A stretch of DNA of 14,161 nt from a virus. Taxonomy: Duplodnaviria; Heunggongvirae; Uroviricota; Caudoviricetes. Location: IMG/VR virus record IMGVR_UViG_2695420514_000009; one strand, written 5' to 3'. Numbering within the stretch: position 1 is the stretch's first letter; every line of letters starts with the position of its first letter. The notes beneath the pieces were generated by a model. It was given only the letters and a program-made list of their open reading frames with translations. It did no database searches and was not told the DNA's origin. Below, one piece after another: positions 238 to 14,161 of the stretch. Made by a program: the position numbers and the translations under genes.

Positions 238-274
238 AAAATATCTGAGAGAGTTATTGCCTGTTACCATAATA

Positions 275-299
275 AAAAGCGACTTTAGTGGTCGCTTTT
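275..299. terminator. bidirectional rho-independent terminator-like hairpin between convergent ORFs
   Basis: AAAAGCGAC (275-283), loop TTTAGTG (284-290), GTCGCTTTT (291-299). The 5-bp GC core is extended by an A-run/T-run that can pair and also supplies a U-tract on either strand. Confidence 0.45.
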
Positions 300-317
300 G
301 TGTCATATATAAGTCGT

Positions 318-542
318 TTAAGTAAACCTGTCTGAACAGGTGCTCTGGTCGTGTTTGTCTTTGTTGGGTAAAAATTGAGAATATTTTTCATTAATTAATC
401 TTCTTCTGCAGGCTTCAATAACCCACGCTGAAAAATTTTCTGAACCTTTCAGATCAAGAGCGATGTTAATTTGTTCAATCATCTGGTTTGGAAATCGGAT
501 GTTGCGGGTTGTTGTTCTGCGGGTTCTGTTCTTTGATGACAT
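318..542 (-). CDS. putative small ribbon-helix-helix (Arc/MetJ/CopG-like) DNA-binding protein
   Basis: 74-aa ORF with ATG at 540-542 (complement). Basic N-terminal tail (KNRTRRTTTR) followed by a predicted strand-helix-helix pattern, IRFPNQMIEQINIALDLKG-SENFSAWVIEACRRRL, which resembles the Arc repressor architecture. The RBS is weak. The DNA closely resembles what I recall of the lambda right end next to cos. Confidence 0.45.
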   Translation of the reverse strand: MSSKNRTRRTTTRNIRFPNQMIEQINIALDLKGSENFSAWVIEACRRRLINEKYSQFLPNKDKHDQSTCSDRFT

Positions 543-707
543 AATGTTGCCCCATATTCAGTGTTGCTGATTTGTATTATCTGAAGTTGCTTTTACGTTA
601 ATTTGATGCAGATCAATTAATACGATACCTGCGTCATAATTGATTATTTGACGTGGTTTGATGGCGTACACGCACGTTGTGACATGTAGATGATAATTAT
701 TATTTTG

Positions 708-722
708 TGGGTCCTTTCCGGC
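708..722 (+). promoter_or_regulatory. cosQ-like element (packaging termination signal) upstream of cosN
   Basis: GGGTCCTTTCCGGCG, about 17 bp upstream of the cosN nick, followed by ATCCGACAGGTTACG. This matches the lambda right-end terminal sequence as I recall it, with one or two substitutions. Confidence 0.5.
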
Positions 723-732
723 GATCCGACAG

Positions 733-755
733 GTTACGGGGCGGCGACCTCGCGG
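733..755. other. cosN cohesive-end site; predicted 12-nt 5' overhang GGGCGGCGACCT at 739-750
   Basis: TTACG|GGGCGGCGACCT|CGCGG matches the lambda cohesive end and its immediate flanks. It sits about 185 bp upstream of the terminase small-subunit gene, as in lambda. Confidence 0.8.
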
Positions 756-786
756 TTTTTCGCTATTTATGAAAATTTTCCGGGAT

Positions 787-893
787 CCATGTCCGGTTTC
801 TCTGCAAGTTAACTATATGAAAAATATAAAAACAGGCTGTCCGTGAACCGGACATGTGCAAAAAACGGACATGTAAACCGGACATGACCGGTT
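787..893. promoter_or_regulatory. cosB-like region: repeated terminase small-subunit binding (R-site-like) motifs flanking an AT-rich putative IHF-bending segment
   Basis: Motif AACCGGACATG occurs at 846-857, 864-874 (one base shorter) and 876-887 in direct orientation, and inverted at 787-798 (CCATGTCCGGTT). The AT-rich stretch 811-835 lies between the inverted copy and the direct copies. Similarity to lambda ends right after TTTTCCGG (about 782). Confidence 0.55.
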
Positions 894-933
894 TTGTGCT
901 GATTGTGAGGTAAGAGTTTTTGCGAGGTGAGGA

Positions 934-1443
934 GTGGCTACGCAGACTGAAGTTGCCAGGCATTTGAGTCTGACCGATCGCCAGCTTCGCAGATTGCAGA
1001 AATTACCGGGTGCCCCGGTCTCGAATAAGCGAGGGCAACTGGATCTGGATGCCTGGCGCGATTTTTACATATCGTATCTGAGGAGAAGTAAAAACGATGT
1101 GCCTGATGGCGATAGCGAAGACGACTATGAGGAAAAATTGCTTATTGCCAGATGGGAACTGACAGCAGAACAGGCTGTTACACAGCAGTTAAAAAATGAG
1201 GTGTCAAAAGGAAAACTTATTGACACCGGGTTCTGTATTTTTGCCCTCAGTAAGCTGGCAATGGCGTTATCCAGTACGCTTGATTCCATCCCTTTATCCA
1301 TGCAACGACAGTTTCCTGATTTAACACCGCGCCATCTTGACCATCTGAAAACCCTTATTGCGAAGGGGGCAAATCAGTGTGCGCGGGCGGGGGATAAATT
1401 ACCGGATTTACTCGATGAATATATCAGAGCAACAACTGAATAA
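934..1443 (+). CDS. nu1: terminase small subunit (gpNu1-like)
   Basis: 169 aa with GTG start at 934, the first start after an in-frame TGA, preceded by GAGGTG. It aligns along its length with recalled lambda gpNu1, for example FCIFALSKLA against FCTFVLSRIA, and a C-terminal LPDLLDEYI against LIPGLLSEYI. The N-terminal DNA-binding region is more divergent. The 3' end overlaps the next gene by 29 nt. Confidence 0.85.
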   Translation: MATQTEVARHLSLTDRQLRRLQKLPGAPVSNKRGQLDLDAWRDFYISYLRRSKNDVPDGDSEDDYEEKLLIARWELTAEQAVTQQLKNEVSKGKLIDTGFCIFALSKLAMALSSTLDSIPLSMQRQFPDLTPRHLDHLKTLIAKGANQCARAGDKLPDLLDEYIRATTE

Positions 1444-3343
1444 TATGATGAGTGCTGTCACAACAGCATTACAGCCCCTGATAAGGGCATTGCCGGTGAC
1501 GCCAGTTGAATGGGCTGATCAAAATTATTATCTGCCGAAAGAATCTTCATATGGTGAGGGAGAATGGAAAACGCTGCCATTCCAGATCGCCATTATGAAC
1601 TGTATGGGTAACGACCAGGTTCGCACGGTTAACCTGATTAAATCTGCCCGTGTTGGCTATACAAAGATGTTGCTGGGGGTGGTCGGGTATTTTATTGAGC
1701 ATAAATCCCGAAACAGTCTGCTTTTTCAGCCCACGGATTCTGCCGCTGAAGATTTTATGAAGTCTCACGTGGAGGCGACGATTAGGGACGTGCCATGCCT
1801 GAAAGACCTTTCCCCATGGCTGGGTCGTAAACATCGTGATAATACCCTCACGCTGAAACGCTTTTCATCGGGTGTGGGCTTCTGGTGCCTGGGCGGCGCT
1901 GCCGCCAAAAACTACCGTGAAAAATCCGTGGACGTGGTCTGCTATGACGAGCTTTCCTCGTTCGAACCGGATGTTGAAAAAGAGGGCTCGCCAACCCTGC
2001 TGGGGGATAAGCGTATTGAGGGCTCTGTATGGCCAAAATCCATTCGCGGCTCGACGCCTAAAATCAAAGGCACCTGTCAGATCGAAAAAGCGGCTAACGA
2101 GTCGGCGCATTTCATGCGTTTTTATGTGCCCTGCCCGCACTGTGGGGAGGCGCAGTATCTGAAATTTGGCGATGAGTCCACGCCTTTTGGGCTTAAATGG
2201 GAGAAGGACAGTCCCGAAAGCGTTTTCTACCTCTGTGAACATCATGGCTGCGTGATCCATCAGTCTGAACTGGACCAGAGCAACGGGCGGTGGATCTGTG
2301 AAAACACGGGCATGTGGACCCGTGACGGTCTGACGTTTTTCAGCGCTGCGGGTAATGAAATTCCGCCGCCGCGCTCCATCACTTTCCATATCTGGACGGC
2401 GTACAGTCCGTTCACCACCTGGGTACAGATTGTCTATGACTGGCTGGATGCACTGAAAGATCCCAACGGCCTGAAAACTTTTGTGAACACCACGCTGGGC
2501 GAGACCTGGGAAGAGGCCGTGGGCGAAAAACTCGATCACCAGGTTCTGATGGATAAGGTTGTTCATTACACGGCGGCGGTGCCTGCCCGGGTGGTTTATC
2601 TGACGGCGGGCATTGACTCGCAGCGAAACCGTTTTGAGATGTATGTCTGGGGATGGGCTCCGGGAGAGGAGGCCTTTCTGGTGGATAAAATTATCATTAT
2701 GGGGCGTCCCGATGAGGAAGAGACGCTATTACGTGTGGATGCGGCGATCAACAAAAAATACCGCCATGCAGACGGAACCGAAATGACCATTTCCCGTGTC
2801 TGCTGGGACATCGGGGGGATCGATGGCGAAATCGTTTATCAGAGGTCAAAAAAACACGGTGTTTTCCGGGTGCTGCCGGTAAAAGGCGCATCTGTCTATG
2901 GCAAGCCGGTGATCACCATGCCAAAAAACCGCAATCAGCGGGGCGTGTATCTGTGTGAAGTGGGGACGGACACCGCAAAAGAAATTCTCTATGCCCGTAT
3001 GAAAGCCGATCCCACGCCTGCGGATGAAGCCACGTCGTATGCCATCCGTTTTCCTGATGATCCGGAGATTTTTTCGCAGACAGAAGCGCAGCAACTGGTG
3101 GCGGAAGAGCTTGTGGAGAAGTGGGAAAAAGGAAAGATGCGTCTGCTGTGGGATAACAAAAAGCGGCGTAACGAAGCACTGGATTGCCTGGTGTATGCCT
3201 ACGCGGCATTACGTGTGTCCGTGCAACGCTGGCAGCTTGATCTGGCTGTACTGGCAAAATCCCGGGAAGAAGAGACGACCCGGCCAACCCTTAAAGAACT
3301 GGCAGCGAAGCTGTCCGGAGGAGTGAATGGTTACAGTCGCTGA
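1415..3343 (+). CDS. A: terminase large subunit (gpA-like; ATPase/nuclease)
   Basis: 642 aa from ATG 1415 (MNISEQQL...). Strong collinear similarity to lambda gpA, for example VEWADQNYYLPKESSYGEGEWKTLPFQ, DNTLTLKRF and KSVDVVCYDEL. The track ORF from 1358 is an upstream extension in the same frame; homology supports 1415. Confidence 0.93.
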   Translation: MNISEQQLNNMMSAVTTALQPLIRALPVTPVEWADQNYYLPKESSYGEGEWKTLPFQIAIMNCMGNDQVRTVNLIKSARVGYTKMLLGVVGYFIEHKSRNSLLFQPTDSAAEDFMKSHVEATIRDVPCLKDLSPWLGRKHRDNTLTLKRFSSGVGFWCLGGAAAKNYREKSVDVVCYDELSSFEPDVEKEGSPTLLGDKRIEGSVWPKSIRGSTPKIKGTCQIEKAANESAHFMRFYVPCPHCGEAQYLKFGDESTPFGLKWEKDSPESVFYLCEHHGCVIHQSELDQSNGRWICENTGMWTRDGLTFFSAAGNEIPPPRSITFHIWTAYSPFTTWVQIVYDWLDALKDPNGLKTFVNTTLGETWEEAVGEKLDHQVLMDKVVHYTAAVPARVVYLTAGIDSQRNRFEMYVWGWAPGEEAFLVDKIIIMGRPDEEETLLRVDAAINKKYRHADGTEMTISRVCWDIGGIDGEIVYQRSKKHGVFRVLPVKGASVYGKPVITMPKNRNQRGVYLCEVGTDTAKEILYARMKADPTPADEATSYAIRFPDDPEIFSQTEAQQLVAEELVEKWEKGKMRLLWDNKKRRNEALDCLVYAYAALRVSVQRWQLDLAVLAKSREEETTRPTLKELAAKLSGGVNGYSR

Positions 3344-3533
3344 ACTGCAGGCGCTGCGTCAGGCGCGCCTTGATTTATTAACCGGTAAACGGGTGGTGTC
3401 TGTCCAGAAAGACGGTCGCAGAATTGAATATACGGCGGCTTCTCTGGATGAGCTTAACCGGGCGATCAATGATGCGGAGTCGGTACTGGGGACAACCCGC
3501 CGTCGCCGTCGTCCGCTGGGAGTGAGGTTATGA
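3327..3533 (+). CDS. W: head-tail joining/head completion protein (gpW-like)
   Basis: 68 aa, same length as lambda gpW, with a conserved LLTGKRVVSVQKDGRRIEYTAAS core. It overlaps the terminase 3' end and its stop overlaps the portal start (ATGA at 3530-3533). Confidence 0.9.
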   Translation: MVTVAELQALRQARLDLLTGKRVVSVQKDGRRIEYTAASLDELNRAINDAESVLGTTRRRRRPLGVRL

Positions 3534-5122
3534 AACGAACGCCTGTCCTGATTGATGTGAACGGCGTTCCGCTTCGGGAGAGCCTCAGCTACAACGGGGG
3601 CGGCGCAGGATTTGGCGGGCAAATGGCGGAGTGGTTGCCACCGGCGCAGAGTGCCGATGCAGCTCTGTTGCCCGCGTTGCGTCTGGGGAATGCCCGTGCA
3701 GATGATCTGGTACGCAATAACGGGATAGCGGCCAATGCGGTGGCACTGCATAAGGATCACATTGTCGGGCATATGTTTCTTATCAGCTACCGTCCGAACT
3801 GGCGCTGGCTGGGGATGCGGGAGACCGCGGCAAAAAGTTTTGTCGATGAGGTGGAGGCGGCCTGGTCGGAATACGCAGAAGGGATGTCTGGCGAGATCGA
3901 CGTGGAAGGGAAACGCACGTTTACGGAATTTATCCGTGAAGGTGTGGGCGTTCATGCGTTTAACGGCGAAATCTTTGTGCAGCCGGTCTGGGATGCGGAG
4001 ACCACGCAGTTATTCCGTACGCGTTTTAAAGCCGTGAGTCCGAAACGGGTGGACACGCCAGGACACGGTATGGGGAACCGCTTTCTGCGGGCCGGTGTGG
4101 AGGTCGATCGATATGGCCGTGCCGTTGCGTACCATATCTGTGAGGATGATTTTCCGTTCTCTGGTAGTGGACGATGGGAACGGATCCCGCGTGAACTTCC
4201 CACCGGGCGTCCGGCCATGCTGCATATTTTCGAGCCGGTGGAGGACGGGCAGACCCGTGGGGCTAATCAGTTTTACAGCGTCATGGAGCGGCTGAAGATG
4301 CTGGATTCCCTGCAGGCAACACAGCTTCAGTCAGCCATAGTGAAGGCAATGTATGCAGCGACAATTGAAAGTGAACTTGATACCGAAAAGGCCTTTGAAT
4401 ATATCGCCGGTGCACCGCAGGGGCAGAAGGATAATCCGCTTATTAATATTCTGGAGAAGTTCTCCAGTTGGTATGACACGAATAACGTGACGCTGGGCGG
4501 CGTCAAAATTCCGCACCTTTTCCCCGGGGATGATCTGAAACTGCAGACTGTGCAGGATTCAGACAATGGATTTTCGGCACTTGAACAGGCGCTGCTGCGG
4601 TATATCGCCGCCGGTCTTGGCGTTTCCTACGAACAGTTGTCCCGTGATTACTCGAAGGTCAGTTATTCAAGTGCCCGTGCATCCGCCAATGAGTCGTGGC
4701 GCTATTTTATGGGGCGGCGAAAATTTATTGCGGCCCGGCTGGCCACGCAGATGTTTTCCTGCTGGCTGGAAGAGGCTCTTCTTCGGGGGATTATTCGTCC
4801 GCCACGGGCGCGTTTTGATTTTTATCAGGCGCGATCAGCCTGGTCACGGGCAGAGTGGATTGGTGCCGGAAGAATGGCCATTGACGGGCTCAAGGAGGTT
4901 CAGGAATCAGTGATGCGCATTGAGGCCGGACTGAGCACGTATGAGAAAGAGCTGGCGTTGATGGGCGAGGATTATCAGGACATTTTCCGCCAGCAGGTCA
5001 GGGAATCTGCAGAGCGGCAAAAAGCCGGACTCTCACGTCCGGTGTGGATAGCGCAGGCGTATCAGCAGCAGATAGCGGAGAGTCGCAGGCCGGAAGAGGA
5101 GACAACACCACGTGAGACGTAA
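3530..5122 (+). CDS. B: portal protein (gpB-like)
   Basis: 530 aa with RBS GGAGTGAGG. Long conserved blocks match lambda gpB, for example ARADDLVRNNG, FEPVEDGQTRGAN, LQSAIVKAMYAATIESELDT and LLRYIAAGLGVSYEQLSR. Confidence 0.93.
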   Translation: MKRTPVLIDVNGVPLRESLSYNGGGAGFGGQMAEWLPPAQSADAALLPALRLGNARADDLVRNNGIAANAVALHKDHIVGHMFLISYRPNWRWLGMRETAAKSFVDEVEAAWSEYAEGMSGEIDVEGKRTFTEFIREGVGVHAFNGEIFVQPVWDAETTQLFRTRFKAVSPKRVDTPGHGMGNRFLRAGVEVDRYGRAVAYHICEDDFPFSGSGRWERIPRELPTGRPAMLHIFEPVEDGQTRGANQFYSVMERLKMLDSLQATQLQSAIVKAMYAATIESELDTEKAFEYIAGAPQGQKDNPLINILEKFSSWYDTNNVTLGGVKIPHLFPGDDLKLQTVQDSDNGFSALEQALLRYIAAGLGVSYEQLSRDYSKVSYSSARASANESWRYFMGRRKFIAARLATQMFSCWLEEALLRGIIRPPRARFDFYQARSAWSRAEWIGAGRMAIDGLKEVQESVMRIEAGLSTYEKELALMGEDYQDIFRQQVRESAERQKAGLSRPVWIAQAYQQQIAESRRPEEETTPRET

Positions 5123-6617
5123 TCTTTCACACATTATTGCCGCAGCATTCAATGAACCGCTGCTTCTGGAGCCCGCCTATGCGCGGGTTTTCTTTTGCGC
5201 GCTCGGGCGCGAGATGGGGGCAGCAAGTCTTTCGGTACCACAGCAGCAGGTACAGCTTGATGCTTCCGGAATGCTGGCTGAAACGGACGAGTACATGGCC
5301 GGAGGTAAACGACCGGCCCGTGTTTACAGGGTGGTGAACGGTATTGCTGTACTGCCGGTGACCGGCACGCTGGTGCACCGGCTGGGGGGTATGCGGCCAT
5401 TTTCCGGAATGACAGGCTATGACGGTATTGTCGCCTGTCTTCAGCAGGCAATGGCGGATAGCCAGGTGCGGGGCGTACTGCTGGACATTGACAGTCCGGG
5501 CGGGCAGGCCGCCGGCGCGTTTGACTGCGCTGACATGATTTACCGCCTCCGTCAGCAGAAACCGGTCTGGGCACTGTGCAATGACACGGCCTGTTCTGCA
5601 GCCATGCTGCTGGCGTCGGCCTGCTCCCGACGGCTGGTTACCCAGACATCCCGTATCGGCTCCATTGGCGTGATGATGAGCCATGTCAGCTATGCCGGTC
5701 ATCTGGCGCAGGCCGGTGTGGATATCACGCTGATTTACTCAGGGACGCACAAGGTGGATGGCAATCAGTTTGAAGCGTTGCCGGCAGAGGTTCGCCAGGA
5801 TATGCAGCAGCGGATTGATGCGGCGCGCCGGATGTTTGCTGAAAAAGTGGCGATGTATACCGGTCTGTCTGTTGATGCCGTCACGGGAACAGAGGCCGCC
5901 GTTTTTGAAGGTCAGTCCGGCATTGAGGCCGGGCTGGCGGATGAATTAGTCAATGCGTCGGATGCCATCAGTGTGATGGCCACGGCGCTGAACAGTAATG
6001 TCAGAGGAGGCACTATGCCGCAATTAACTGCAACGGAAGCCGCCGCGCAGGAGAACCAGCGAGTGATGGGGATCCTGACATGCCAGGAAGCGAAAGGACG
6101 TGAACAGCTTGCCACGATGCTGGCAGGACAACAGGGCATGAGCGTTGAACAGGCCCGGGCGATTCTGGCCGCGGCGGCACCACAGCAGCCGGTGGCATCC
6201 GCGCAGAGTGAAGCCGATCGCATTATGGCGTGTGAAGAAGCGAACGGTCGTGAACAACTGGCGGCAACGCTGGCGGCGATGCCGGAGATGACGGTGGAAA
6301 AAGCCCGCCCGATCCTGGCTGCTTCACCGCAGGCGGATGCCGGACCCTCACTCCGTGATCAGATCATGGCACTGGATGAGGCAAAAGGGGCTGAGGCGCA
6401 GGCAGAACAGCTGGCTGCCTGCCCGGGAATGACTGTGGAGAGCGCCCGGGCTGTGCTGGCTGCGGGATCAGGTAAGGCAGAACCGGTCTCTGCATCCACA
6501 ACCGCCATGTTTGAACGCATCATGGCGAACCATTCACCGGCAGCGGTACAGGGTGGCGTGCCACAGACGTCAGCAGACGGTGATGCGGACGTGAAAATGC
6601 TCATGGCCATGCCATGA
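5112..6617 (+). CDS. C: prohead protease (gpC-like, S49/ClpP-type serine peptidase) with C-terminal scaffold domain
   Basis: 501 aa with GTG start at 5112, overlapping the portal 3' end. The N-terminal two-thirds match lambda gpC (AFNEPLLLEPAYARVFFCAL, NGIAVLPVTGTLV, SIGVMMSHVSYAGHLAQAGVDITLIYSGTHKVDGN). The C-terminal third is Ala/Gln/Glu-rich and internally repeated. Confidence 0.9.
   Translation: MRRNLSHIIAAAFNEPLLLEPAYARVFFCALGREMGAASLSVPQQQVQLDASGMLAETDEYMAGGKRPARVYRVVNGIAVLPVTGTLVHRLGGMRPFSGMTGYDGIVACLQQAMADSQVRGVLLDIDSPGGQAAGAFDCADMIYRLRQQKPVWALCNDTACSAAMLLASACSRRLVTQTSRIGSIGVMMSHVSYAGHLAQAGVDITLIYSGTHKVDGNQFEALPAEVRQDMQQRIDAARRMFAEKVAMYTGLSVDAVTGTEAAVFEGQSGIEAGLADELVNASDAISVMATALNSNVRGGTMPQLTATEAAAQENQRVMGILTCQEAKGREQLATMLAGQQGMSVEQARAILAAAAPQQPVASAQSEADRIMACEEANGREQLAATLAAMPEMTVEKARPILAASPQADAGPSLRDQIMALDEAKGAEAQAEQLAACPGMTVESARAVLAAGSGKAEPVSASTTAMFERIMANHSPAAVQGGVPQTSADGDADVKMLMAMP
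6015..6617 (+). CDS. nu3: scaffolding protein (gpNu3-like), nested in-frame within the 3' third of the protease gene
   Basis: Internal ATG at 6015 in the C frame, preceded by GAGGAGG (6005-6011). It yields 200 aa, the size expected from lambda Nu3, which is likewise translated in-frame within C. It contains three tandem ~46-53 aa repeats. Confidence 0.6.
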   Translation: MPQLTATEAAAQENQRVMGILTCQEAKGREQLATMLAGQQGMSVEQARAILAAAAPQQPVASAQSEADRIMACEEANGREQLAATLAAMPEMTVEKARPILAASPQADAGPSLRDQIMALDEAKGAEAQAEQLAACPGMTVESARAVLAAGSGKAEPVSASTTAMFERIMANHSPAAVQGGVPQTSADGDADVKMLMAMP

Positions 6618-6653
6618 AGCCAGTGCTGACCATCAACAGGAGGTTTTTACAAT

Positions 6654-7001
6654 ATGGTGACGAAAACCATCACTGAACAGCGTGCGGAAGTACGTATTTT
6701 TGCCGGTAATGATCCGGCTCATACCGCCACAGGCAGCAGCGGGATTTCCTCGCCAACACCGGCACTGACGCCCCTGATGCTGGATGAAGCCACCGGGAAA
6801 CTGGTGGTCTGGGACGGACAGAAAGCCGGTAGTGCGGTTGGCATACTGGTACTGCCGCTTGAAGGCACAGAGACGGCGCTGACGTATTACAAGTCGGGAA
6901 CCTTTGCGACGGAGGCAATCCACTGGCCTGAAAGTGTGGATGAACACAAAAAGGCCAACGCTTTTGCCGGCAGTGCCCTGAGTCACGCGGCGCTGCCGTA
7001 A
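6654..7001 (+). CDS. D: head decoration protein (gpD-like)
   Basis: 115 aa with RBS AGGAGG at 6639-6644. Matches lambda gpD: DPAHTAT, PLMLD, KLVVWDG, AVGIL, YYKSGTF and AFAG. Confidence 0.92.
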   Translation: MVTKTITEQRAEVRIFAGNDPAHTATGSSGISSPTPALTPLMLDEATGKLVVWDGQKAGSAVGILVLPLEGTETALTYYKSGTFATEAIHWPESVDEHKKANAFAGSALSHAALP

Positions 7002-7010
7002 CACGTTATC

Positions 7011-7028
7011 AGGCCACCGCGGTGGCCT
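7011..7028. other. perfect palindrome/hairpin in the D-E intergenic spacer
   Basis: AGGCCAC-CGCG-GTGGCCT, a 7-bp stem with 4-nt loop. The following sequence is only moderately T-rich (GACTGATTTCTG). Confidence 0.3.
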
Positions 7029-7058
7029 GACTGATTTCTGAATGAAAGGAACTGATTT

Positions 7059-8087
7059 ATGGGATTGTTTACGACCCGCCAGTTACTCGGTTATACCGAA
7101 CAAAAAGTTAAATTTCGTGCGCTGTTTCTGGAGCTGTTTTTCCGCCGTACAGTGAATTTCCATACCGAAGAGGTGATGCTGGACAAAATTACCGGAAAAA
7201 CGCCGGTGGCGGCCTATGTCTCCCCGGTTGTTGAAGGAAAAGTGCTGCGTCATCGTGGTGGTGAAACCCGCGTGTTGCGTCCGGGCTACGTCAAGCCGAA
7301 ACACGAATTTAATTACCAGCAGGCGGTTGAGCGCCTTCCTGGTGAAGATCCATCTCAACTGAATGATCCGGCTTACCGCCGTCTGCGTATCATTACCGAT
7401 AACCTCAAACAGGAAGAGCACGCGATTGTCCAGGTGGAAGAAATGCAGGCGGTAAATGCTGTGTTGTATGGCAAATACACTATGGAAGGAGACCAGTTCG
7501 AGAAAATTGAGGTCGATTTTGGCAGGTCGACGAAGAATAACATCACTCAGGGTAGTGGTAAGGAGTGGTCAAAACAGGATCGTGACACGTTCGATCCTAC
7601 ACATGATATTGACCTCTACTGCGACCAGGCCAGCGGTCTTGTGAATATTGCCATTATGGACGGTACCGTCTGGCGTCTGCTGAATGGCTTTAAATTGTTC
7701 CGCGAAAAACTGGATACCCGTCGCGGCTCTAATTCGCAACTCGAAACAGCGGTGAAAGACCTGGGCGCGGTGGTGTCCTTCAAAGGGTATTACGGCGATC
7801 TGGCCATTGTGGTGGCAAAAACGTCTTATGTGGCAGAGGACGGTACCGAAAAACGTTATCTGCCTGAGGGCTCGCTGGTCCTGGGGAATACGGCAGCAGA
7901 GGGCATTCGTTGCTATGGTGCCATTCAGGATGCGCAGGCGTTGTCCGAAGGTGTGGTGGCCTCTTCCCGTTATCCGAAACACTGGCTGACGGTAGGGGAT
8001 CCCGCCCGTGAATTTACCATGACGCAGTCCGCGCCGCTGATGGTGTTGCCGGACCCGGATGAGTTTGTGGTGGTACAGGTGAAATAA
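7059..8087 (+). CDS. E: major capsid protein (gpE-like)
   Basis: 342 aa, against 341 in lambda gpE. Extensive identity, for example GYVKPKHE, VEEMQAVNAVLYGKYTMEGD, KLDTRRGSNSQLETAVKDLG and GDPAREFTMTQSAPLMVLPDPDEF. Confidence 0.95.
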   Translation: MGLFTTRQLLGYTEQKVKFRALFLELFFRRTVNFHTEEVMLDKITGKTPVAAYVSPVVEGKVLRHRGGETRVLRPGYVKPKHEFNYQQAVERLPGEDPSQLNDPAYRRLRIITDNLKQEEHAIVQVEEMQAVNAVLYGKYTMEGDQFEKIEVDFGRSTKNNITQGSGKEWSKQDRDTFDPTHDIDLYCDQASGLVNIAIMDGTVWRLLNGFKLFREKLDTRRGSNSQLETAVKDLGAVVSFKGYYGDLAIVVAKTSYVAEDGTEKRYLPEGSLVLGNTAAEGIRCYGAIQDAQALSEGVVASSRYPKHWLTVGDPAREFTMTQSAPLMVLPDPDEFVVVQVK

Positions 8088-8094
8088 TCCGTGA

Positions 8095-8124
8095 GCGGGG
8101 GCGGAATGCCCCCGTGTCTTTTTT
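8095..8124 (+). terminator. rho-independent terminator-like hairpin immediately downstream of the major capsid gene
   Basis: CGGGGGC (8096-8102), loop GGAAT, GCCCCCG (8108-8114): a 7-bp all-GC stem, followed by a T6 run at 8119-8124. It lies 8 nt after the E stop codon. Confidence 0.55.
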
Positions 8125-8138
8125 CACAGGGGGATGAT

Positions 8139-8513
8139 ATGGCAACGAAAGAGCAAAATCTGAAACGGCTTGATGAACTGGCCCTGATTCTGGGGCGTGA
8201 GCCGGATATATCCGGGAGTGCCGCAGAGATAGCGCAGCGGGTGGCAGAATGGGAAGAGGAAATGCAGTCATCCGGCGATGATGTACAGGTTATGAATATG
8301 GATATCCGGGAGAGGGAAACCGCGGCTCATGATGTTCGTGAGGAAACATCCGGCGCGTTAACGCGCATCAGAGTTCTGACCTGCCTCCATCTCTGTGGCG
8401 TTGATGGTGAAACGGGGGAATCCGTTGAGCTTGCGGATGTTGGTCGGGTGATTCTGATTATGTCCTCAGATGCAAAAACACACGTTGATGGCGGAATGGC
8501 TGTTTATGCGTGA
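8139..8513 (+). CDS. FI: DNA packaging / head assembly accessory protein (gpFI-like)
   Basis: ATG at 8139 (MATKEQNLKRL...) preceded by AGGGGG, giving 124 aa. Acidic, gpFI-like composition and position between E and FII. The track ORF from GTG 8091 starts inside the terminator hairpin and is judged an over-extension. Confidence 0.75.
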   Translation: MATKEQNLKRLDELALILGREPDISGSAAEIAQRVAEWEEEMQSSGDDVQVMNMDIRERETAAHDVREETSGALTRIRVLTCLHLCGVDGETGESVELADVGRVILIMSSDAKTHVDGGMAVYA

Positions 8514-8859
8514 TTTTCAGAATGCCTTTGATGCCGCCCTTGCCGGGGTGGACAGTACGATTGTTGAAGTGATGGGCATCAGTGCGCAGTTCACCTCCGG
8601 TGCACAGCGTGGCGGCGAGGTTCATGGCGTTTTTGACGATCCGGAGTCGCTGGGTTTTGCCAGTAGTGGGATCCGTATTGAAGGAAGCAACCCGTCATTA
8701 TTTGTGCGGACGGATACGGTTCGTGCCGTGCGGCGTGGTGACACGCTGACCATTAATGGTGAGACGTTCTGGGTGGATCGTGTTTCTCCGGATGACGGGG
8801 GCAGTTGTTATCTCTGGCTGAACCGTGGGCAACCACCCGCAGTTAACCGGCGACGATAA
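8506..8859 (+). CDS. FII: head-tail connector / head completion protein (gpFII-like)
   Basis: 117 aa from ATG 8506 (MRDFQNAFDAAL...), matching lambda gpFII length and start region. Strong identity: RGDTLTI, FWVDRVSPDDGGSC, LWL and PPAVNRRR. Overlaps the FI stop. The start is ambiguous with the in-frame ATGs at 8470 and 8488. Confidence 0.85.
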   Translation: MRDFQNAFDAALAGVDSTIVEVMGISAQFTSGAQRGGEVHGVFDDPESLGFASSGIRIEGSNPSLFVRTDTVRAVRRGDTLTINGETFWVDRVSPDDGGSCYLWLNRGQPPAVNRRR

Positions 8860-8873
8860 ATGCAGGGTGAATT

Positions 8874-9449
8874 ATGGCGATAAAAGGGCTTGATCAGGCG
8901 ATTGAAAATCTGAGCCGGGTTCGTAAAAACGCCATTCCGTCGGCTTCAGCAATGGCTATTAACCGCGTGGCTACAACGGCGATTAATCAGTCTTCATCAC
9001 AGGTTGCCCGGGAGACCAGGGTGAGCCGGAAACTGGTAAAGGAACGGTCCAGACTGAAACGGGCGACGGTCAGAAATCCGAATGCCAAAATTATCGTTAA
9101 CCGCGGTGATCTCCCTGCTATTAAGCTGGGGATCAGGATGCTTGGTCATCGTCCGAACAGCATACTTAAAGCCGGTCAGCATCGTTATCAGCGGGCATTC
9201 ATCCAGCGATTAAATAATGGGCGCTGGCATGTTATGCAACGTTTGCCAGAAGCCCGGTATGCGAAGGGCAATGACGATAAAGGAAGGAAAAAGCGTAATC
9301 GTCTTCCCATTCAGGTGGTTAAAATTCCGATGGCGGCCCCACTGAAGCAGGCTTTTGATGAGAACGTTAACCGTATCCGGCGAGAACGTCTGCCAAAAGA
9401 ACTGGGCTATGCGTTGAAACAACAACTAAGGATTGTGATAAAGCGATGA
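8874..9449 (+). CDS. Z: tail completion protein (gpZ-like)
   Basis: 191 aa. N-terminus MAIKGL.QA.ENLSR, AMAINRVA and C-terminus RIRRERLPKELGYAL..QLR.VIKR match lambda gpZ. Confidence 0.92.
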   Translation: MAIKGLDQAIENLSRVRKNAIPSASAMAINRVATTAINQSSSQVARETRVSRKLVKERSRLKRATVRNPNAKIIVNRGDLPAIKLGIRMLGHRPNSILKAGQHRYQRAFIQRLNNGRWHVMQRLPEARYAKGNDDKGRKKRNRLPIQVVKIPMAAPLKQAFDENVNRIRRERLPKELGYALKQQLRIVIKR

Positions 9450-9841
9450 AACATACTGATATCCGTGCTGCAGTGCTGGATGCACTCGAGCAGCATGAAC
9501 ACGGGGCGACGCTGTTTGATGGTCGCCCCGCTGTTTTTGATGAGGCGGATTTTCCGGCAATTGCTGTTTATCTCACCGGCGCTGAATACACGGGCGAAGC
9601 GCTGGACAGCGATACCTGGCAGGCGGAGCTGCATATTGAAGTTTTCCTGCCTGCTCAGGTGCCGGATTCAGAGCTGGATTCGTGGATGGAAAGCCGGATT
9701 TATCCGGCGATGAGTGCGATCCCGGCACTGTCAGGCCTGATTACCACGATGGTTACGCAGGGCTATGAGTATCGTCGTGATGACGATATGGCGTTATGGA
9801 GTTCTGCTGATTTGACTTATTCCATTACATACGAGATGTGA
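9446..9841 (+). CDS. U: tail terminator protein (gpU-like)
   Basis: 131 aa, same length as lambda gpU and near-identical over long stretches ([53 protein letters not shown]). ATGA overlap with Z. Confidence 0.95.
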
Positions 9842-9848
9842 GGATGAT

Positions 9849-10601
9849 ATGCCAACACCAAATCCTCTGGCACCGGTAAAAGGTGCCGGTACCACCCTGT
9901 GGGTTTATAACGGTCAGGGTGATGCCTATGCAAACCCGTTGTCAGACGATAACTGGCAGCGACTGGCACATGTAAAGGATCTGACGCCGGGCGAGATGAC
10001 GGCAGAACCCTACGATGATAACTACCTGGATGATGAAGACGCGGACTGGACTGCGACCGGGCAGGGGCAGAAGTCTGCAGGAGATACCAGTTTTACGCTG
10101 GCCTGGAAACCGGGAGAAGAAGGTCAGAAAGGGCTTATAGGCTGGTTTGAAAGCGGGGATGTGCGGGCCTATAAAATCCGTTTCCCGAACGGCACGGTGG
10201 ATGTGTTCCGTGGCTGGGTCAGCAGTATCGGTAAGGCCGTAACGGCGAAGGAAGTGATCACCCGTACGGTGAAAGTGACCAACGTGGGTAAACCTTCTGT
10301 GGCGGAAGAACGCAGCGAAATTACGCCGGTCACTGCGATTAAGGTGACGCCGACATCCGGTACGGTGGCAAAAGGGAAAACAACAACCCTGACGGTTTCT
10401 TTTGAGCCGGAAAGTGCAACCGACAAAACGTTCAGAGCGGTTTCCGCCGATCCGTCAACGGGAACCATTGCTGTGAAAGATATGGCGATCACTGTGACGG
10501 GGGTTAAGGCTGGAAAAGTGAGTATCCCCGTGATTTCCGGTAATGGTCAGTTTGCCACGGTAGCTGAAGTCACCGTTACTGAAGCGGGCGCTGCAGGGTA
10601 A
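9849..10601 (+). CDS. V: major tail tube protein (gpV-like) with C-terminal Ig-like (Big_2-type) domain
   Basis: 250 aa. N-terminal tube domain matches lambda gpV (GAGTTLWVY and following). The C-terminal ~90 aa are Thr/Val-rich with an alternating beta-strand pattern typical of bacterial Ig-like domains. Confidence 0.92.
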
Positions 10602-10614
10602 ACGGAGGTAATAC

Positions 10615-11046
10615 ATGTTTCTGAAAACCGAACAATTTGAATATAACGGTGTGTCCGTCACGCTTTCCGAGCTGTCTGCGCTGCAGCGTATCGAGCATCT
10701 TGCCCTGCTGAAACGACGGGCAGAACAGGCTGAAGCCAGCGGTAACCTGCAGGTGAGCGTGGAAGACCTTGTCAGAACCGGCGCGTTTCTGGTGGCGATG
10801 TCCCTGTGGCATAACCATCCACAGAAAACGGAGTCACCATCAATGAATGAGGCTGTGATGCAGATCGAACAGGAGGTGCTCACCACCTGGCCTGCTGATG
10901 CCATTGCCCGGGCGGAAGACGTGGTGTTGCGTCTGTCCGGGATGAGCGGGGCTGTTCATGTGGATACGGATATCACCGAAGTGGCGAAAAATAACGCGCT
11001 TACTGATGATGATTTTTCTGCGGGAAAGTCTTCGACGGCGAGCTGA
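10615..11046 (+). CDS. G: tail assembly chaperone (gpG-like)
   Basis: 143 aa with RBS GGAGG at 10605-10609. Near-identical to lambda gpG at the N-terminus (MFLKTE.FE.NGV.VTLSELSALQRIEHLAL) and at GAFLVAMSLWHNHPQKT. Slippery heptamer G GGA AAG at 11022-11028, 6 codons before the stop. Confidence 0.93.
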   Translation: MFLKTEQFEYNGVSVTLSELSALQRIEHLALLKRRAEQAEASGNLQVSVEDLVRTGAFLVAMSLWHNHPQKTESPSMNEAVMQIEQEVLTTWPADAIARAEDVVLRLSGMSGAVHVDTDITEVAKNNALTDDDFSAGKSSTAS

Positions 11047-11486
11047 ATTTTGCCCTCAGACTGGCGCGAGAGATGGGGCGACCCGACTGGCGCGCCATGC
11101 TTGCCGGGATGACATCCACCGAATATGCCGACTGGCGACATTTTTACCGCACGCATTATTTTCAGGATACCCAACTGGATATGCATTTTTCCGGGCTGAT
11201 GTACGCTGTACTCAGCCTGTTTTTTTGCGATCCGGATATGCATCCCTCTGATTTCAGTCTGCTTGTCCCCCGGCATGAGGAAGAGCAGGTGGAGAGGCTG
11301 GATGAGGACAAAATGCTGATGCAGAAAGCGGCAGGACTTGCCGGAGGCGTCCGGTTCGGTGGGGACGGAGGGGGCGATATTTTATCGTCTGCGGATGTGG
11401 CGGATGTCATGGTGGATGATGCTGCATTAATGATGGCTTCAGCGGGGATTCCAGGAGGTGTGAGATATGTCCCAGCCGGTTGGTGA
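10615..11486 (+). CDS. GT: tail assembly chaperone G-T fusion produced by programmed -1 ribosomal frameshift (G frame 10615-11027, then T frame from 11027/11028 to 11486)
   Basis: The slippery site GGGAAAG at 11022-11028 is the same heptamer used by lambda G/T. The -1 frame after the slip is open to 11486 and encodes gpT-like sequence (MGRPDWRAMLAGMTSTEYADW, HFSGLMYAVLSLFF, VLMQKAAGLAGGVRFG) with no independent RBS. Confidence 0.85.
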
Positions 11487-14101
11487 TCTTATTATTGACC
11501 TGAGTCTGGATGCGGTCCGTTTCGATGAGCAGATGAGCCGGGTAAGGCGTCATTTTTCAGGACTGGATACTGACGCCAGAAAAACCGCCACTGCTGTTGA
11601 ACAGGGGCTGAGCCGTCAGGCGCTGGCTGCGCAAAAAGCCGGGATTTCCGTCGGACAGTATAAAGCGGCCATGCGCACCCTGCCCGCACAGTTTACGGAT
11701 ATCGCCACGCAGCTTGCCGGTGGTCAGAATCCCTGGCTGATCCTGCTGCAACAGGGCGGTCAGGTGAAGGACTCCTTCGGCGGGATGATCCCCATGCTCA
11801 GGGGGCTTGCCGGTGCGATCACCCTGCCGATGGTCGGGGTCACCTCGCTGGCGGTGGCGACAGGTGCGCTGGCGTACGCCTGGTACCAGGGGGATTCCAC
11901 GCTTTCAGCGTTTAATAAAACCCTGGTTCTTTCCGGTAATCAGTCCGGACTGACTGCCGATCGCATGTTGACGCTCTCCAGAGTCGGACAGGCCGCAGGG
12001 CTGACGTTTAACCAGGCGAGTGAGTCACTGGCAGCCCTGGTGAATGCCGGTGTGCGTGGTGGTGAACAGTTTGATGCGATCAACCAGAGTGTTGCGCGTT
12101 TTGCGTCTGCATCCGGTGTGGAGGTGGATAAAGTCGCTGAAGCCTTCGGGAAGCTGACCACTGATCCGACGTCGGGACTGATGGCGATGGCGCGCCAGTT
12201 CCGTAACGTGACGGCAGAGCAGATTGCGTATGTTGCACAGCTGCAGCGTTCCGGTGATGAGGCCGGAGCCTTACAGGCGGCGAACGATATCGCCACGAAA
12301 GGCTTTGATGAGCAGACCCGCCGTCTGAAAGAAAACATGGGGACGCTGGAGACCTGGGCGGATAAAACAGGGAAGGCGTTCAAATCGATGTGGGATGCCA
12401 TTCTGGATATCGGTCGTCCGGAATCCTCAGCGGATATGCTCGCCAGTGCGCAGAAGGCATTCGATGAGGCGGATAAAAAATGGCAGTGGTACCAGAGCCG
12501 GAGCCAGCGTCGGGGAAAGACCGCCTCTTTCCGTGCCAACCTTCAGGGCGCATGGGATGACCGTGAAAATGCCCGTCTGGGGCTGGCGGCGGCAACACTG
12601 CAGTCGGATATGGAAAAAGCCGGTGAACTGGCGGCAAGGGATAAGGCTGAGCGTGACGCGTCACAGCTGAAATATACCGAAGAGGCACAGAAGGCGTATG
12701 AACGGATGCTGTCGCCGCTGGAGAAATATACCACCCGTCAGGAAGAACTGAATAAGGCCCTGAAAGACGGAAAAATCCTGCAGGCGGATTACAACACGCT
12801 GATGGCGTCGGCAAAAAAGGATTATGAGTCGACGCTGAAAAAGCCGTCCGGTGTGAAGGTTTCAGTCGGTGAGCGCCAGGAAGACCGGGCACATGCAGCT
12901 ATGCTGGCGCTTGAAACCGAGCTCAGGACGCTGGAAAAACACAGCGGTGTGAATGAGAAAATCAGCCAGCAGCGCCGGGATTTATGGAAAGCGGAAAATC
13001 AGTATGCGGTCCTTAAAGAGGCTGCCACGAAACGGCAGTTATCTGAGCAGGAAAAATCCCTGCTGGCCCATGAGAAAGAGACGCTGGAGTACAAACGCCA
13101 GCTGGCTGAGCTGGGCGACAAGGTGGAACACCAGAAACGGCTGAATGAGCTGGCGCAGCAGGCGGCGCGGTTTGAACAGCAGCAAAGCGCGAAGCAGGCG
13201 GCAATCAGCGCAAAAGCCCGCAGTCTCACCGACCGTCAGGCGCAGCGCGAGTCGGAAGAGCAGCGGCTTCGTGACGTGTACGGTGATAATCCGGCTGTGC
13301 TGGCGAAGGCCACATCTGCACTGAAGAACACCTGGTCTGCGGAGGAGCAGCTTCGTGGAAGCTGGATGGCTGGCCTGAAGTCCGGCTGGAGCGAGTGGAA
13401 AGAGAGTGCCACGGACAGTATGTCGCAGGTTAAAAGTGCTGCCACGCAGACCTTTGATGGTATTGCGCAGAATGTGGCGGCGATGCTGACCGGCAGTGAG
13501 CAGAACTGGCGCAGCTTCACCCGTTCCGTGCTGTCCATGATGACAGAAATTCTGCTAAAGCAGGCAATGGTGGGGATTGTCGGGAGTATCGGCAGCAATG
13601 ATGACAGAAATTCTGCTTAAGCAGGCAATGGTGGGGATTGTCGGGAGTATCGGCAGCGCCATTGGCGGAGTTGTTGGTGGCGGCGCATCAGCGTCAGGCG
13701 GTACAGCCATTCAGGCTGCGGCGGCGAACTTCCATTTCGCGACCGGGGGATTTACGGGAACCGGTGGCAAATATGAGCCAGCGGGGATTGTCCACCGCGG
13801 GGAGTTTGTCTTCACGAAGGAGGCAACCAGCCGGATTGGTGTCAGCAACCTGTACCGCCTGATGCGGGGCTATGCGGAAGGTGGTTATGTGGGCGGTGCC
13901 GGAAGTCCGGCGCAGAGGCGGCGGGCGGAAGGCATTAATTTTAATCAGAACAATCACGTGGTGATTCAGAACGACGGCACGAACGGGCAGATAGGTCCGG
14001 CTGCTCTGAAGGCGGTGTATGACATGGCCCGCAAGGGTGCCCGTGATGAAATTCAGACACAGATGCGTGATGGTGGCCTGTTCTCCGGAGGTGGACGATG
14101 A
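11467..14101 (+). pseudogene. H: tail tape measure protein gene (gpH-like), frame disrupted by a 61-bp tandem duplication; present as a 717-aa N-terminal ORF (11467-13620) plus a C-terminal ORF in the +1 frame (13598-14101)
   Basis: RBS AGGAGG before ATG 11467. The N-terminal part is coiled-coil-rich with a hydrophobic segment, typical of tape measure proteins. The C-terminal ORF encodes a Gly-rich conserved gpH C-terminus (GGFTGTGGKYEPAGIVHRGEFVFTKEATSRIG). Removing one repeat copy restores a single ~857-codon ORF, against ~853 aa for lambda gpH. Confidence 0.8.
13536..13657 (+). repeat. 61-bp direct tandem duplication (2 copies, 59/61 identical) inside the tape measure gene
   Basis: Copy 1 is 13536-13596 and copy 2 is 13597-13657. 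They differ at the first base (C vs A) and at 13557 vs 13618 (A vs T). The second difference creates the in-frame TAA (13618-13620) and a CTTAAG hexamer (13616-13621). Confidence 0.9.
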
Positions 14102-14161
14102 AAACCTTCCGCTGGAAAGTAAAACCCGGCATGGATGTGGCTTCGGCTCCTTCCGTAAGAA
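14098..14161 (+). CDS. M: tail tip assembly protein (gpM-like), 5' fragment; continues beyond the window
   Basis: ATG at 14098 overlaps the H stop (ATGA). The encoded MKTFRWKVKPGMDVASAPSVR matches the lambda gpM N-terminus. Confidence 0.85.
   Translation, partial: MKTFRWKVKPGMDVASAPSVR

What the first reader, a model, noticed from the sequence alone, without database searches (positions are those of the whole stretch)
13536..13657. 61-bp tandem duplication splits the tape measure gene by a +1 frameshift
Two adjacent 61-bp copies (59/61 identical) lie in the 3' quarter of gene H. Because 61 = 3n+1, the H frame hits TAA at 13618-13620, and the conserved gpH C-terminus continues in the +1 frame, which has an ATG at 13598 in the second copy. 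One of the two mismatches both creates the stop and makes a CTTAAG hexamer. Collapsing the duplication gives an intact ORF of about 857 codons. Possible readings are a recent inactivating mutation in a decaying prophage, a slipped-strand or assembly artefact, an engineered insertion, or a genuine two-polypeptide tape measure. The split lies in the C-terminal region where lambda gpH is processed to H*, though I cannot place the cleavage site from memory.
Basis: seen in the sequence. Interest (0 to 1): 0.8.

Follow-up and report, generated by a model that had tools for sequence, protein, structure and literature searches.

The report
Scaffold-gap artefact, not a gene duplication
The apparent 61-bp duplication that splits the phage tail tape-measure gene is almost certainly an assembly artefact: two contigs whose 60-bp overlapping ends were joined with a one-letter gap (N) that the window shows as an A. 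The real gene is most likely intact and ordinary.

Summary
The repeat is in the window as described, but it is not what it seems. The window is the whole of scaffold BBVF01000045.1 (14,161 bp) from the Platanus short-read draft of Escherichia albertii strain 24. Over the 10,564 nt that could be compared, the deposited record differs from the window at one position: window 13597 'A' is 'N' in the record. That N sits exactly between the two copies. So the structure is 60 nt, then a 1-N scaffold gap, then the same 60 nt, which is the signature of two contigs whose overlapping ends were not merged. One internal mismatch (A13557 versus T13618) probably blocked the merge.

Removing one copy and the N gives gap-free alignment at 99.6-99.9% to sibling E. 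albertii prophages and an 857-aa gpH-type tape measure, the same length as in 8 of 10 complete sibling genomes. No tandem junction with any 0-3-nt filler exists in 5,426 E. coli genomes, 100,044 species-representative genomes, IMG/VR or JGI metagenomes. CTTAAG is the native sequence (T in 86 of 130 loci); the private base is the A in copy 1. An independent E. albertii assembly breaks a contig exactly at 13659, 61 nt after copy 2 starts, which marks a graph branch point.

Verdict: not a real feature; low interest.

The parts
11467..14101 (+). Tape measure gene H (lambda gpH type). With the artefact removed it is a single 857-codon ORF.
   Evidence: Collapsing 13537-13597 gives 857 aa ending ...GGLFSGGGR*. 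Pfam TMP_2 covers aa 54-256 (E 4.5e-68) and Tape_meas_lam_C covers aa 631-705 (E 6.2e-21). Siblings have 857-aa H.
11467..13620 (+). Apparent 717-aa 'N-terminal H' ORF, created by reading through the scaffold join.
   Evidence: The same coordinates are called as a 717-residue gene on the record. The last 7 residues (NDDRNSA) are out-of-frame read-through of copy 2.
13537..13596 (+). Copy 1: the last 60 nt of the left contig (H codons 691-710, MMTEILLKQAMVGIVGSIGS).
13557..13557 (+). Private A (CTA, synonymous Leu) in copy 1. It is the only true mismatch between the copies and probably the reason the overlap was not merged.
   Evidence: All siblings have T. Across 130 loci the counts are T 86, G 44, A 0. 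The 41-mer with A is absent from 5,426 E. coli genomes.
13597..13597 (.). Scaffold gap: 'N' in the deposited record BBVF01000045.1, shown as 'A' in the window.
   Evidence: It is the only difference between window 3598-14161 and the record. The deposited units are Platanus scaffolds, and in Platanus output N denotes gaps.
13598..13657 (+). Copy 2: the first 60 nt of the right contig, identical to the native sequence of relatives.
   Evidence: The native 41-mer occurs in 3,528 E. coli genomes.
13616..13621 (+). CTTAAG hexamer. This is native H sequence (CTG CTT AAG = L L K), not a new or engineered site.
13618..13620 (+). Apparent TAA stop. It exists only in the frame shifted by the extra 61 positions.
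13598..14101 (+). Apparent 167-aa 'C-terminal H' ORF. In reality it is H codons 691-857.
   Evidence: This exact product is on record from a single 14,161-bp contig.
13659..13659 (+). First polymorphic site after the repeat (C here, T in 9 of 10 siblings) and a likely de Bruijn branch point. Copy 2 starts exactly 61 nt upstream of it.
   Evidence: C 119, T 11; positions r55-r61 are invariant. An independent 348-nt E. albertii contig (L014) begins exactly at this base.

Best explanation
The '61-bp tandem duplication' is a scaffolding artefact in a short-read draft assembly. The window is a Platanus scaffold made of two contigs. The left one ends at 13596 and the right one starts at 13598. Their ends overlap by 60 nt in the real genome, the overlap was not merged, and the scaffolder or gap-closer left a minimal 1-N gap between them. 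The window shows that N as A, which makes the join look like a 61-nt (3n+1) duplication with a frameshift. The real prophage most likely has one copy and an intact 857-aa tape measure gene.

Shown: the N at the junction, the scaffold origin, gap-free colinearity after collapse, absence of the arrangement elsewhere, and a contig break at 13659 in another assembly.

Inferred: the contigs broke here because paralogous lambdoid H alleles in the genome diverge at 13659 (a graph branch; adjacent unitigs then share k-1 = 61 nt at k = 62), and the single A/T mismatch at repeat position 21 prevented the overlap from being recognised.
For: (1) The deposited record has N exactly between the copies, and it is the only window/record difference in 10,564 nt. 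The chance of a lone N landing on that one position is about 1e-4.
(2) The record is one of 137 '>500 bp scaffolds' of E. albertii strain 24, sequenced on MiSeq at 224x and assembled with Platanus 1.1.4. Platanus runs contig assembly, scaffolding and gap-close, and N marks its gaps.
(3) Removing one copy plus the N gives gapless alignments of 14,100 nt (99.64%, L013) and 13,392 nt (99.91%, L011) to complete sibling genomes. Positions 900-11466 are 100.000% identical to L011.
(4) All 10 complete sibling genomes have one copy, and 8 have an intact 857-aa H.
(5) No junction with 0-3 filler bases occurs in IMG/VR, 100,044 species genomes, JGI metagenomes or 5,426 E. coli genomes. Positive controls found the native sequence in at least 120 IMG/VR contigs and 3,528 E. 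coli genomes.
(6) Copy 2 starts exactly 61 nt upstream of 13659, the first polymorphic site after an invariant stretch. An independent assembly has a contig beginning at exactly that base.
(7) The H 3' end is a habitual break point: many 'partial' tape-measure fragments lie on small contigs.
(8) Gaps inserted between overlapping contigs are a documented scaffolder behaviour.
(9) A real duplication carrying the A/T difference would leave exact repeats of only 20 and 39 nt. Any k of about 42 or more would assemble straight through these without a gap (inference; mean read length is about 106 nt).
Against: Reads could not be examined, so single-copy status in strain 24 is inferred and not observed. 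The origin of the private A at 13557 is unexplained; at 224x a plain sequencing error inside a contig is unusual. If the two contigs were adjacent unitigs of one graph, their shared k-1-mer should be identical. The k = 62 reading requires the N to occupy the place of the last base (G) of the left contig, and I could not verify how Platanus 1.1.4 writes such joins or what maximum k it used. Real inactivation of H does occur in this prophage lineage (nonsense codons in 2 of 10 siblings), so a genuine lesion is not implausible a priori. The exact collapsed 857-aa protein is not found in any other assembly.
Confidence: 0.93

Rival explanations
1. A genuine tandem duplication of about 60-61 nt exists in gene H of strain 24, and the assembler could not bridge its junction, leaving an N. 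Depending on the true junction (1 or 0 bases) the gene would be either frameshifted (a pseudogene in a decaying prophage) or carry an in-frame 20-aa duplication.
For: The string as deposited does contain two copies. Tandem repeats can themselves cause assembly gaps. H is truly inactivated by nonsense mutations in 2 of 10 sibling prophages, so this prophage tolerates loss of H.
Against: An N sits exactly at the junction of a scaffold. With the A/T difference, the longest exact repeats are 20 and 39 nt, which a de Bruijn graph at k of about 42 or more resolves without a gap (inference). The repeat's right edge falling 1 nt before a known contig-break and polymorphic site would be coincidence. 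A copy-to-copy mismatch is unexpected for a recent event when the flanking 10.5 kb is identical to a sibling: 0.03-0.05 differences are expected in 60 nt. No such junction exists in any collection.
Confidence: 0.04
2. A mis-join variant of the artefact. The right-hand contig (13598-14161) does not belong to this prophage. It is the H 3' end of another lambdoid prophage in the same genome, or a collapsed consensus of several, and was scaffolded onto the left contig.
For: Mismatch density to the closest sibling jumps from 0 in 10,566 nt and 3 in 2,070 nt left of the join to 4 in 564 nt right of it. At 13659 the window has the allele common in E. coli-type H genes (C, 119 of 130) rather than the T of 9 of 10 sibling prophages. 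Platanus deliberately merges near-identical 'haplotypes' into mosaic sequence. The scaffold ends only 60 nt into the next gene.
Against: The right part is still 99.3% identical to the same siblings (L011-L013) and far closer to them than to other H alleles in hand. So it may simply be this prophage's own slightly recombinant 3' end. No second prophage of strain 24 was available to compare.
Confidence: 0.2
3. A functional split or recoded tape measure: two polypeptides, or a programmed frameshift across the duplication.
For: An ATG (13598) opens the downstream frame and overlaps the upstream stop. Lambdoid tail operons do use programmed frameshifting elsewhere; the G-T heptamer GGGAAAG is at 11022.
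Against: Nothing is conserved. There are 0 occurrences in thousands of homologous genes. The ATG is simply native Met691-Met692 of H, and the junction base does not exist in the record.
Confidence: 0.005
4. An engineered insertion marked by a new AflII (CTTAAG) site.
For: CTTAAG is unique in the window and lies in the repeat.
Against: CTTAAG is the native sequence in all 10 siblings and in L001, and T is the majority state in 130 loci. The source is a clinical isolate draft genome.
Confidence: 0.002

Closest known systems
Unmerged contig overlap at a scaffold gap ('negative gap' artefact) in short-read assemblies
   Same: A gap character lies between two contigs whose ends repeat the same sequence, and deleting one copy restores colinearity with references. 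[quoted passage not shown]
   Different: I found no published description of Platanus 1.1.4 doing this specifically. The gap here is a single N, short enough that the record looks like an ungapped contig, and downstream processing turned it into a base.
False duplications caused by genome mis-assembly (Kelley and Salzberg 2010, PMC2864568, seen)
   Same: An apparent duplication that exists only in the assembly and is triggered by slight sequence differences between overlapping pieces.
   Different: That work concerns large segmental duplications from haplotype differences in vertebrate WGS assemblies. Here the scale is 60 nt in a bacterial prophage, and paralogous prophage alleles are the likely trigger.
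Bacteriophage lambda gpH tail tape measure protein (Pfam TMP_2 PF06791 + Tape_meas_lam_C PF09718)
   Same: The underlying gene is an ordinary member. It has both domains, sits after G and T and before M, is 857 aa, and is embedded in a complete lambda-like head-tail module.
   Different: Nothing unusual once the artefact is removed. It belongs to an E. albertii prophage about 90% identical to lambda/phage 21-type modules at the DNA level.
Genuine H pseudogenes in sibling E. albertii prophages (L011/CP099871.1, L008/CP030781.2)
   Same: The same gene in the same prophage lineage, truncated.
   Different: Those are simple CAG to TAG nonsense substitutions in closed genomes, with no duplication and no N.

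Membership tests
Scaffold-gap artefact (unmerged overlapping contig ends) | A gap symbol (N) lies exactly at the junction in the deposited sequence. | tested here: met
   Record BBVF01000045.1 reads GGCAGCNATGATG. It is the only N in 10,564 nt and the only difference from the window.
Scaffold-gap artefact (unmerged overlapping contig ends) | The record is the product of a scaffolding/gap-closing assembler, so N means a join of two contigs. | tested here: met
   Ooka et al. 2015 Table S1 lists BBVF01000001-137 as '>500 bp scaffolds', assembled with Platanus 1.1.4.
Scaffold-gap artefact (unmerged overlapping contig ends) | The sequences abutting the gap on both sides are the same, and removing one copy restores colinearity with relatives. 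| tested here: met
   59 of 60 positions are identical and the copies abut the N. The collapsed window aligns without gaps to L011, L012 and L013.
Scaffold-gap artefact (unmerged overlapping contig ends) | No sequencing read spans the two-copy junction, and depth is consistent with one copy. | not testable with these tools
Scaffold-gap artefact (unmerged overlapping contig ends) | There is a reason for a contig break at this spot (a repeat or branch boundary). | tested here: met
   An independent E. albertii assembly has a contig starting exactly at 13659. 13659 is the first polymorphic site after invariant r55-r61. Many partial H fragments lie on small contigs. The exact k-mer geometry (k = 62) is inferred only.
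Genuine tandem duplication (replication slippage or unequal exchange) | A continuous, fully determined junction sequence. | tested here: not met
   The junction base is undetermined (N) in the record.
Genuine tandem duplication (replication slippage or unequal exchange) | Seen in an independent assembly or in relatives. | tested here: not met
   0 hits with any 0-3-nt filler in four collections. There is one copy in 10 siblings and in 129 of 130 other loci; the exception is not tandem.
Lambda gpH-type tape measure protein | TMP_2 and Tape_meas_lam_C domains above Pfam gathering scores. | tested here: met
   229.5 bits against a cut-off of 30.2, and 74.7 bits against a cut-off of 23.
Lambda gpH-type tape measure protein | Position in the tail operon after the G/T chaperones and before M. 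| tested here: met
   ORF order in the window and annotated siblings.
Engineered construct (introduced restriction site) | The CTTAAG site is absent from natural relatives. | tested here: not met
   It is present in all 10 siblings and L001, and T at that position occurs in 86 of 130 loci.

The most novel reading that the evidence does not exclude
Strain 24 really carries a tandem duplication of about 60 nt in its tape measure gene that the assembler failed to bridge. If the true junction has no extra base, it would be an in-frame 20-aa duplication at the end of the Tape_meas_lam_C domain (877 aa). Because lambda tail length scales with gpH length (established knowledge from Katsura and Hendrix, not tested here), that could give a slightly longer tail. 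If the junction has one base, it is a frameshifted pseudogene.
Probability: 0.04. Interest if true: 0.25.

Novelty: not a real feature. Interest (0 to 1): 0.03.

Why it matters
It does not matter biologically: the tape measure gene is most likely intact and ordinary. It matters for method. (1) A single N in a draft scaffold was presented to the first-stage reader as a real base (A), which turned a gap into an apparent 3n+1 duplication with a frameshift. Windows should keep or flag ambiguous bases. (2) Direct repeats that abut an N in scaffolded short-read assemblies should be treated as unmerged contig overlaps before any biological reading. (3) The public record itself yields two spurious gene calls (717 aa and 167 aa) for one gene, and the 167-aa product is already in protein collections.

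Tried and rejected
(a) My first junction probes used the window's 'A' at 13597. Once that turned out to be N they were too specific, so I repeated them with any 0-3 filler bases; the result was still zero.

(b) Exact look-up of the 717-aa product, of a version with X at residue 711, and of the collapsed 857-aa protein found none on record. I had hoped the X version would confirm the N independently and that the 857-aa version would reveal an independent (for example Logan) assembly of the same allele. The result is uninformative.

(c) The homologue search with the 167-aa fragment returned mainly short partial fragments. It did not yield an intact H gene carrying this window's right-hand allele, though it did show that this region is a frequent contig end.

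(d) Slippage microhomology: CCAT occurs at both 13535 and 13659, but slippage there would give a 63-nt in-frame unit with junction GCGCCATGATG, which is not what is seen. Rejected.

(e) The k-mer geometry (k = 62 = 32 + 3 x 10; maximum k of about 0.5 x read length, with mean read length about 106 nt) fits the coordinates if the N replaces the last base of the left contig. The default step size and the maximum-k rule come from my memory of the Platanus manual, not from a tool result, so this is only suggestive.

(f) I could not compare window 1-3597 with the record, so other N-to-A substitutions there cannot be excluded. TRF shows no other long repeat.
Full report
**1. The observation.** Tandem Repeats Finder reports one array at 13537-13657 with period 61, 2.0 copies, 98% matches and score 235. 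The two 61-mers match at 59 of 61 positions. The H frame that opens at ATG 11467 runs to TAA 13618-13620, giving 717 aa that end ...GSIGSNDDRNSA*. The +1 frame carries the conserved gpH C-terminus from ATG 13598 to the stop at 14099-14101, giving 167 aa. Deleting either copy gives an 857-aa ORF. CTTAAG occurs once in the window, at 13616. A 59/61 tandem match is far beyond chance.

**2. Where the window comes from.** The 167-aa downstream product is on record from exactly one contig, of length 14,161 bp, the length of the window. That contig is BBVF01000045.1 of assembly GCA_001514575.1. Other proteins of the window are identical to Escherichia albertii proteins seen on about 110 contigs. Table S1 of Ooka et al. 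2015 (PMC4700944) lists BBVF01000001-BBVF01000137 as the draft genome of E. albertii strain 24: human isolate, Japan, 2000, 10,309,770 reads, 224x, and 137 '>500 bp scaffolds'. The 26 drafts of that study were made from MiSeq reads assembled with Platanus 1.1.4. Platanus works in three stages, contig assembly (de Bruijn graphs from k0 = 32, increased stepwise), scaffolding and gap-close, and the letter N marks gaps in its scaffolds. It also deliberately merges near-identical 'haplotypes' into mosaic sequence (PMC4120091).

**3. The decisive detail.** I fetched the same record independently as locus L003 (record positions 3598-14161). It differs from the window at exactly one of 10,564 positions: window 13597 is 'A' and the record has 'N'. 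The window contains no N at all, so the N was replaced by A when the window was prepared.

That N lies exactly between the two copies. The deposited structure is therefore [left contig ... 60 nt] N [the same 60 nt ... right contig]. The period of 61, and hence the '3n+1 frameshift', is 60 repeated bases plus one gap character. The chance that the only N in 10.5 kb falls on this one position by accident is about 1e-4.

**4. Comparison with relatives.** Ten complete E. albertii chromosomes carry the same prophage (L004-L013). With one copy and the N removed, the window aligns to them without any gap:
- 14,100 nt at 99.64% to L013
- 13,392 nt at 99.91% to L011
- 13,392 nt at 99.89% to L012

Positions 900-11466 are 100.000% identical to L011. 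All ten siblings have a single copy reading CTGCTTAAGCAG, and eight have an intact 857-aa H, exactly the collapsed length.

The T that forms TAA and CTTAAG is therefore the native base. Across 130 homologous loci (siblings, E. coli and IMG/VR contigs), repeat position 21 is T in 86, G in 44 and A in none, and the unit is single-copy in 129. The one exception has two copies 4.2 kb apart, which is not tandem. The private base is the synonymous A in copy 1, and the stop appears only because native GCT TAA G is read out of frame.

**5. Is the two-copy arrangement seen anywhere else?** It is not. In the phage collection and in complete E. coli genomes, every listed hit to the 721-nt region spans about 660 nt, which is one copy. 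Allele-specific 41-nt probes found the copy-1 A variant in 0 genomes and the junction in 0 genomes. The control probe from copy 2 hit 3,528 of 5,426 genomes at 5,009 places.

My first junction probes contained the spurious A, so I repeated them allowing any 0-3 bases at the junction. There were 0 hits in IMG/VR, 0 in 100,044 species-representative genomes and 0 in JGI metagenomes. A 61-nt G-junction query also found 0 in E. coli genomes. The native single-copy sequence across the same spot is present in at least 120 IMG/VR contigs.

**6. Why a contig boundary here?** The 3' part of H is conserved among co-resident lambdoid prophages; the median is 2 places per E. coli genome that has any, and the maximum is 8. 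It is also a habitual contig end in draft assemblies: the homologue search with the 167-aa fragment returned mostly 'partial' tape-measure fragments on small contigs, in clusters of up to thousands of members.

After an invariant stretch (repeat positions 55-61), the first polymorphic site is 13659, with C in 119 loci and T in 11. The window has C there and nine of ten sibling prophages have T. An independent E. albertii draft (GCA_027565315.1) has a 348-nt contig that begins at exactly this base, so the site acts as a graph branch point. Copy 2, the start of the right contig, begins exactly 61 nt upstream of it. That is where an allele-specific unitig starts at k = 62, and adjacent unitigs share k-1 = 61 nt.

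The numbers in Table S1 imply a mean read length of about 106 nt. As I recall the Platanus defaults (step 10, maximum k about half the read length; not verified here), a final k near 62 is plausible. This geometric fit is suggestive and not proven, because it requires the N to stand in the place of the left contig's last base.

Mismatch density to the closest sibling rises from 0 in 10,566 nt and 3 in 2,070 nt left of the join to 4 in 564 nt right of it. That fits a right contig that is a slightly different paralogous or mosaic allele.

**7. Mechanism proposed.** Two contigs that overlap by 60-61 nt in the genome were linked by read pairs. The overlap was not recognised because of the single A/T mismatch, and a minimal 1-N gap was written between them. 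That overlapping contigs give 'negative gaps', and that scaffolders insert gap characters between overlapping contigs, is documented for other assemblers (PMC3158087; PMC5368935).
- Shown: the N, the scaffold origin, colinearity after collapse, the uniqueness of the arrangement, and the independent break at 13659.
- Inferred: the graph branch in strain 24, the value of k, and the role of the mismatch.
- Unexplained: where the private A at 13557 comes from.

**8. The main rival** is a real duplication of about 60 nt that the assembler could not bridge. In its favour, H is truly inactivated in two sibling prophages. Those lesions, however, are plain CAG to TAG nonsense substitutions in closed genomes: codon 471 in L011 and codon 141 in L008.

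Against the rival:
- With the A/T difference, the longest exact repeats would be 20 and 39 nt. A de Bruijn graph at k of about 42 or more passes through these without a gap.
- The repeat's edge coinciding with a known break site would be chance.
- A copy-to-copy difference is unexpected for an event younger than the split from a sibling that is identical over 10.5 kb; 0.03-0.05 differences are expected.

I put this rival at about 4%. Engineered insertion and a functional split or recoded tape measure are effectively excluded.

**9. What the gene is.** Once collapsed, it is an ordinary lambda gpH-type tape measure. TMP_2 covers aa 54-256 and Tape_meas_lam_C covers aa 631-705, both well above Pfam thresholds. 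It sits between G/T and M in a complete lambda-like head-tail module. The repeated 60 nt encode residues 691-710.

**10. Verdict.** This is not a real feature. Confidence is about 0.93 that the duplication and the split of H are products of scaffolding plus an N-to-A substitution in the window. Interest is very low biologically. The useful outcomes are methodological: keep or flag ambiguous bases in windows, and treat direct repeats abutting an N in scaffolded drafts as unmerged overlaps. Read mapping or a 240-versus-300-bp PCR would settle it.

Noticed in passing
window 13597: The window shows 'A' where the deposited record BBVF01000045.1 has 'N', and the window contains no N at all. Ambiguous bases appear to be replaced by A when windows are prepared. 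Window 1-3597 could not be compared with the record.
   Followed up: yes
L011 (CP099871.1) at the position matching window 12877; L008 (CP030781.2) at the position matching window 11887: Two of ten sibling E. albertii prophages in closed genomes carry genuine CAG to TAG nonsense mutations in H (codons 471 and 141). L008 also has a fragmented terminase large-subunit gene. This prophage lineage is decaying in some strains.
   Followed up: partly
L014:1-348 (GCA_027565315.1, JAQAOU010000197.1), matching window 13659-14006: A 348-nt contig of an independent E. albertii draft begins exactly at the polymorphic site 13659. It matches the window's right-hand allele at 13917 but the sibling allele at 13659, 13669 and 13671.
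   Followed up: yes
window 11022-11028: The canonical lambda G-T -1 frameshift heptamer GGGAAAG lies near the end of gene G (G stop at 11044-11046, T ORF 11073-11486). This is the expected tail-chaperone recoding site.
   Followed up: partly
window 1-237 and 14098-14161: The scaffold starts inside a PerC-family gene and ends 64 nt into gene M. Both ends lie in sequence shared among lambdoid prophages, as expected for repeat-bounded short-read scaffolds.
   Followed up: partly
window 7679-7994 (gene E) and 709-756: There is a patch of about 34 clustered mismatches to L013 inside the major capsid gene, while L011 is identical there. At the left, similarity to L011/L012 begins at about 709, with 5 mismatches at 722-756. 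These are typical mosaic recombination patches.
   Followed up: partly
L004-L013, about 16547-17068 (minus strand): A Cu/Zn superoxide dismutase gene (sodC, Pfam Sod_Cu) sits on the opposite strand between tail genes I and J in all ten sibling prophages. It looks like a cargo (moron) gene just beyond the window's right end.
   Followed up: no
L108 (IMG/VR contig), minus strand at about 4786 and 9034: One viral contig holds two copies of the 60-nt H unit 4.2 kb apart on the same strand. Possible causes are two H-like genes, tandem prophages or another assembly problem.
   Followed up: no
window 503-532 and 862-886: There are two short tandem repeats (15 nt x 2.1 and 13 nt x 1.9). The second lies upstream of the terminase small-subunit gene (934-1443), in the region where cos/terminase-binding repeats would be expected.
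   Followed up: no
one search hit list (P0049-P0160): The C-terminal part of H is represented in public protein sets by very many 'partial' fragments from small contigs, in clusters of up to about 4,000 members. This is a systematic footprint of prophage repeat collapse in short-read assemblies.
   Followed up: partly
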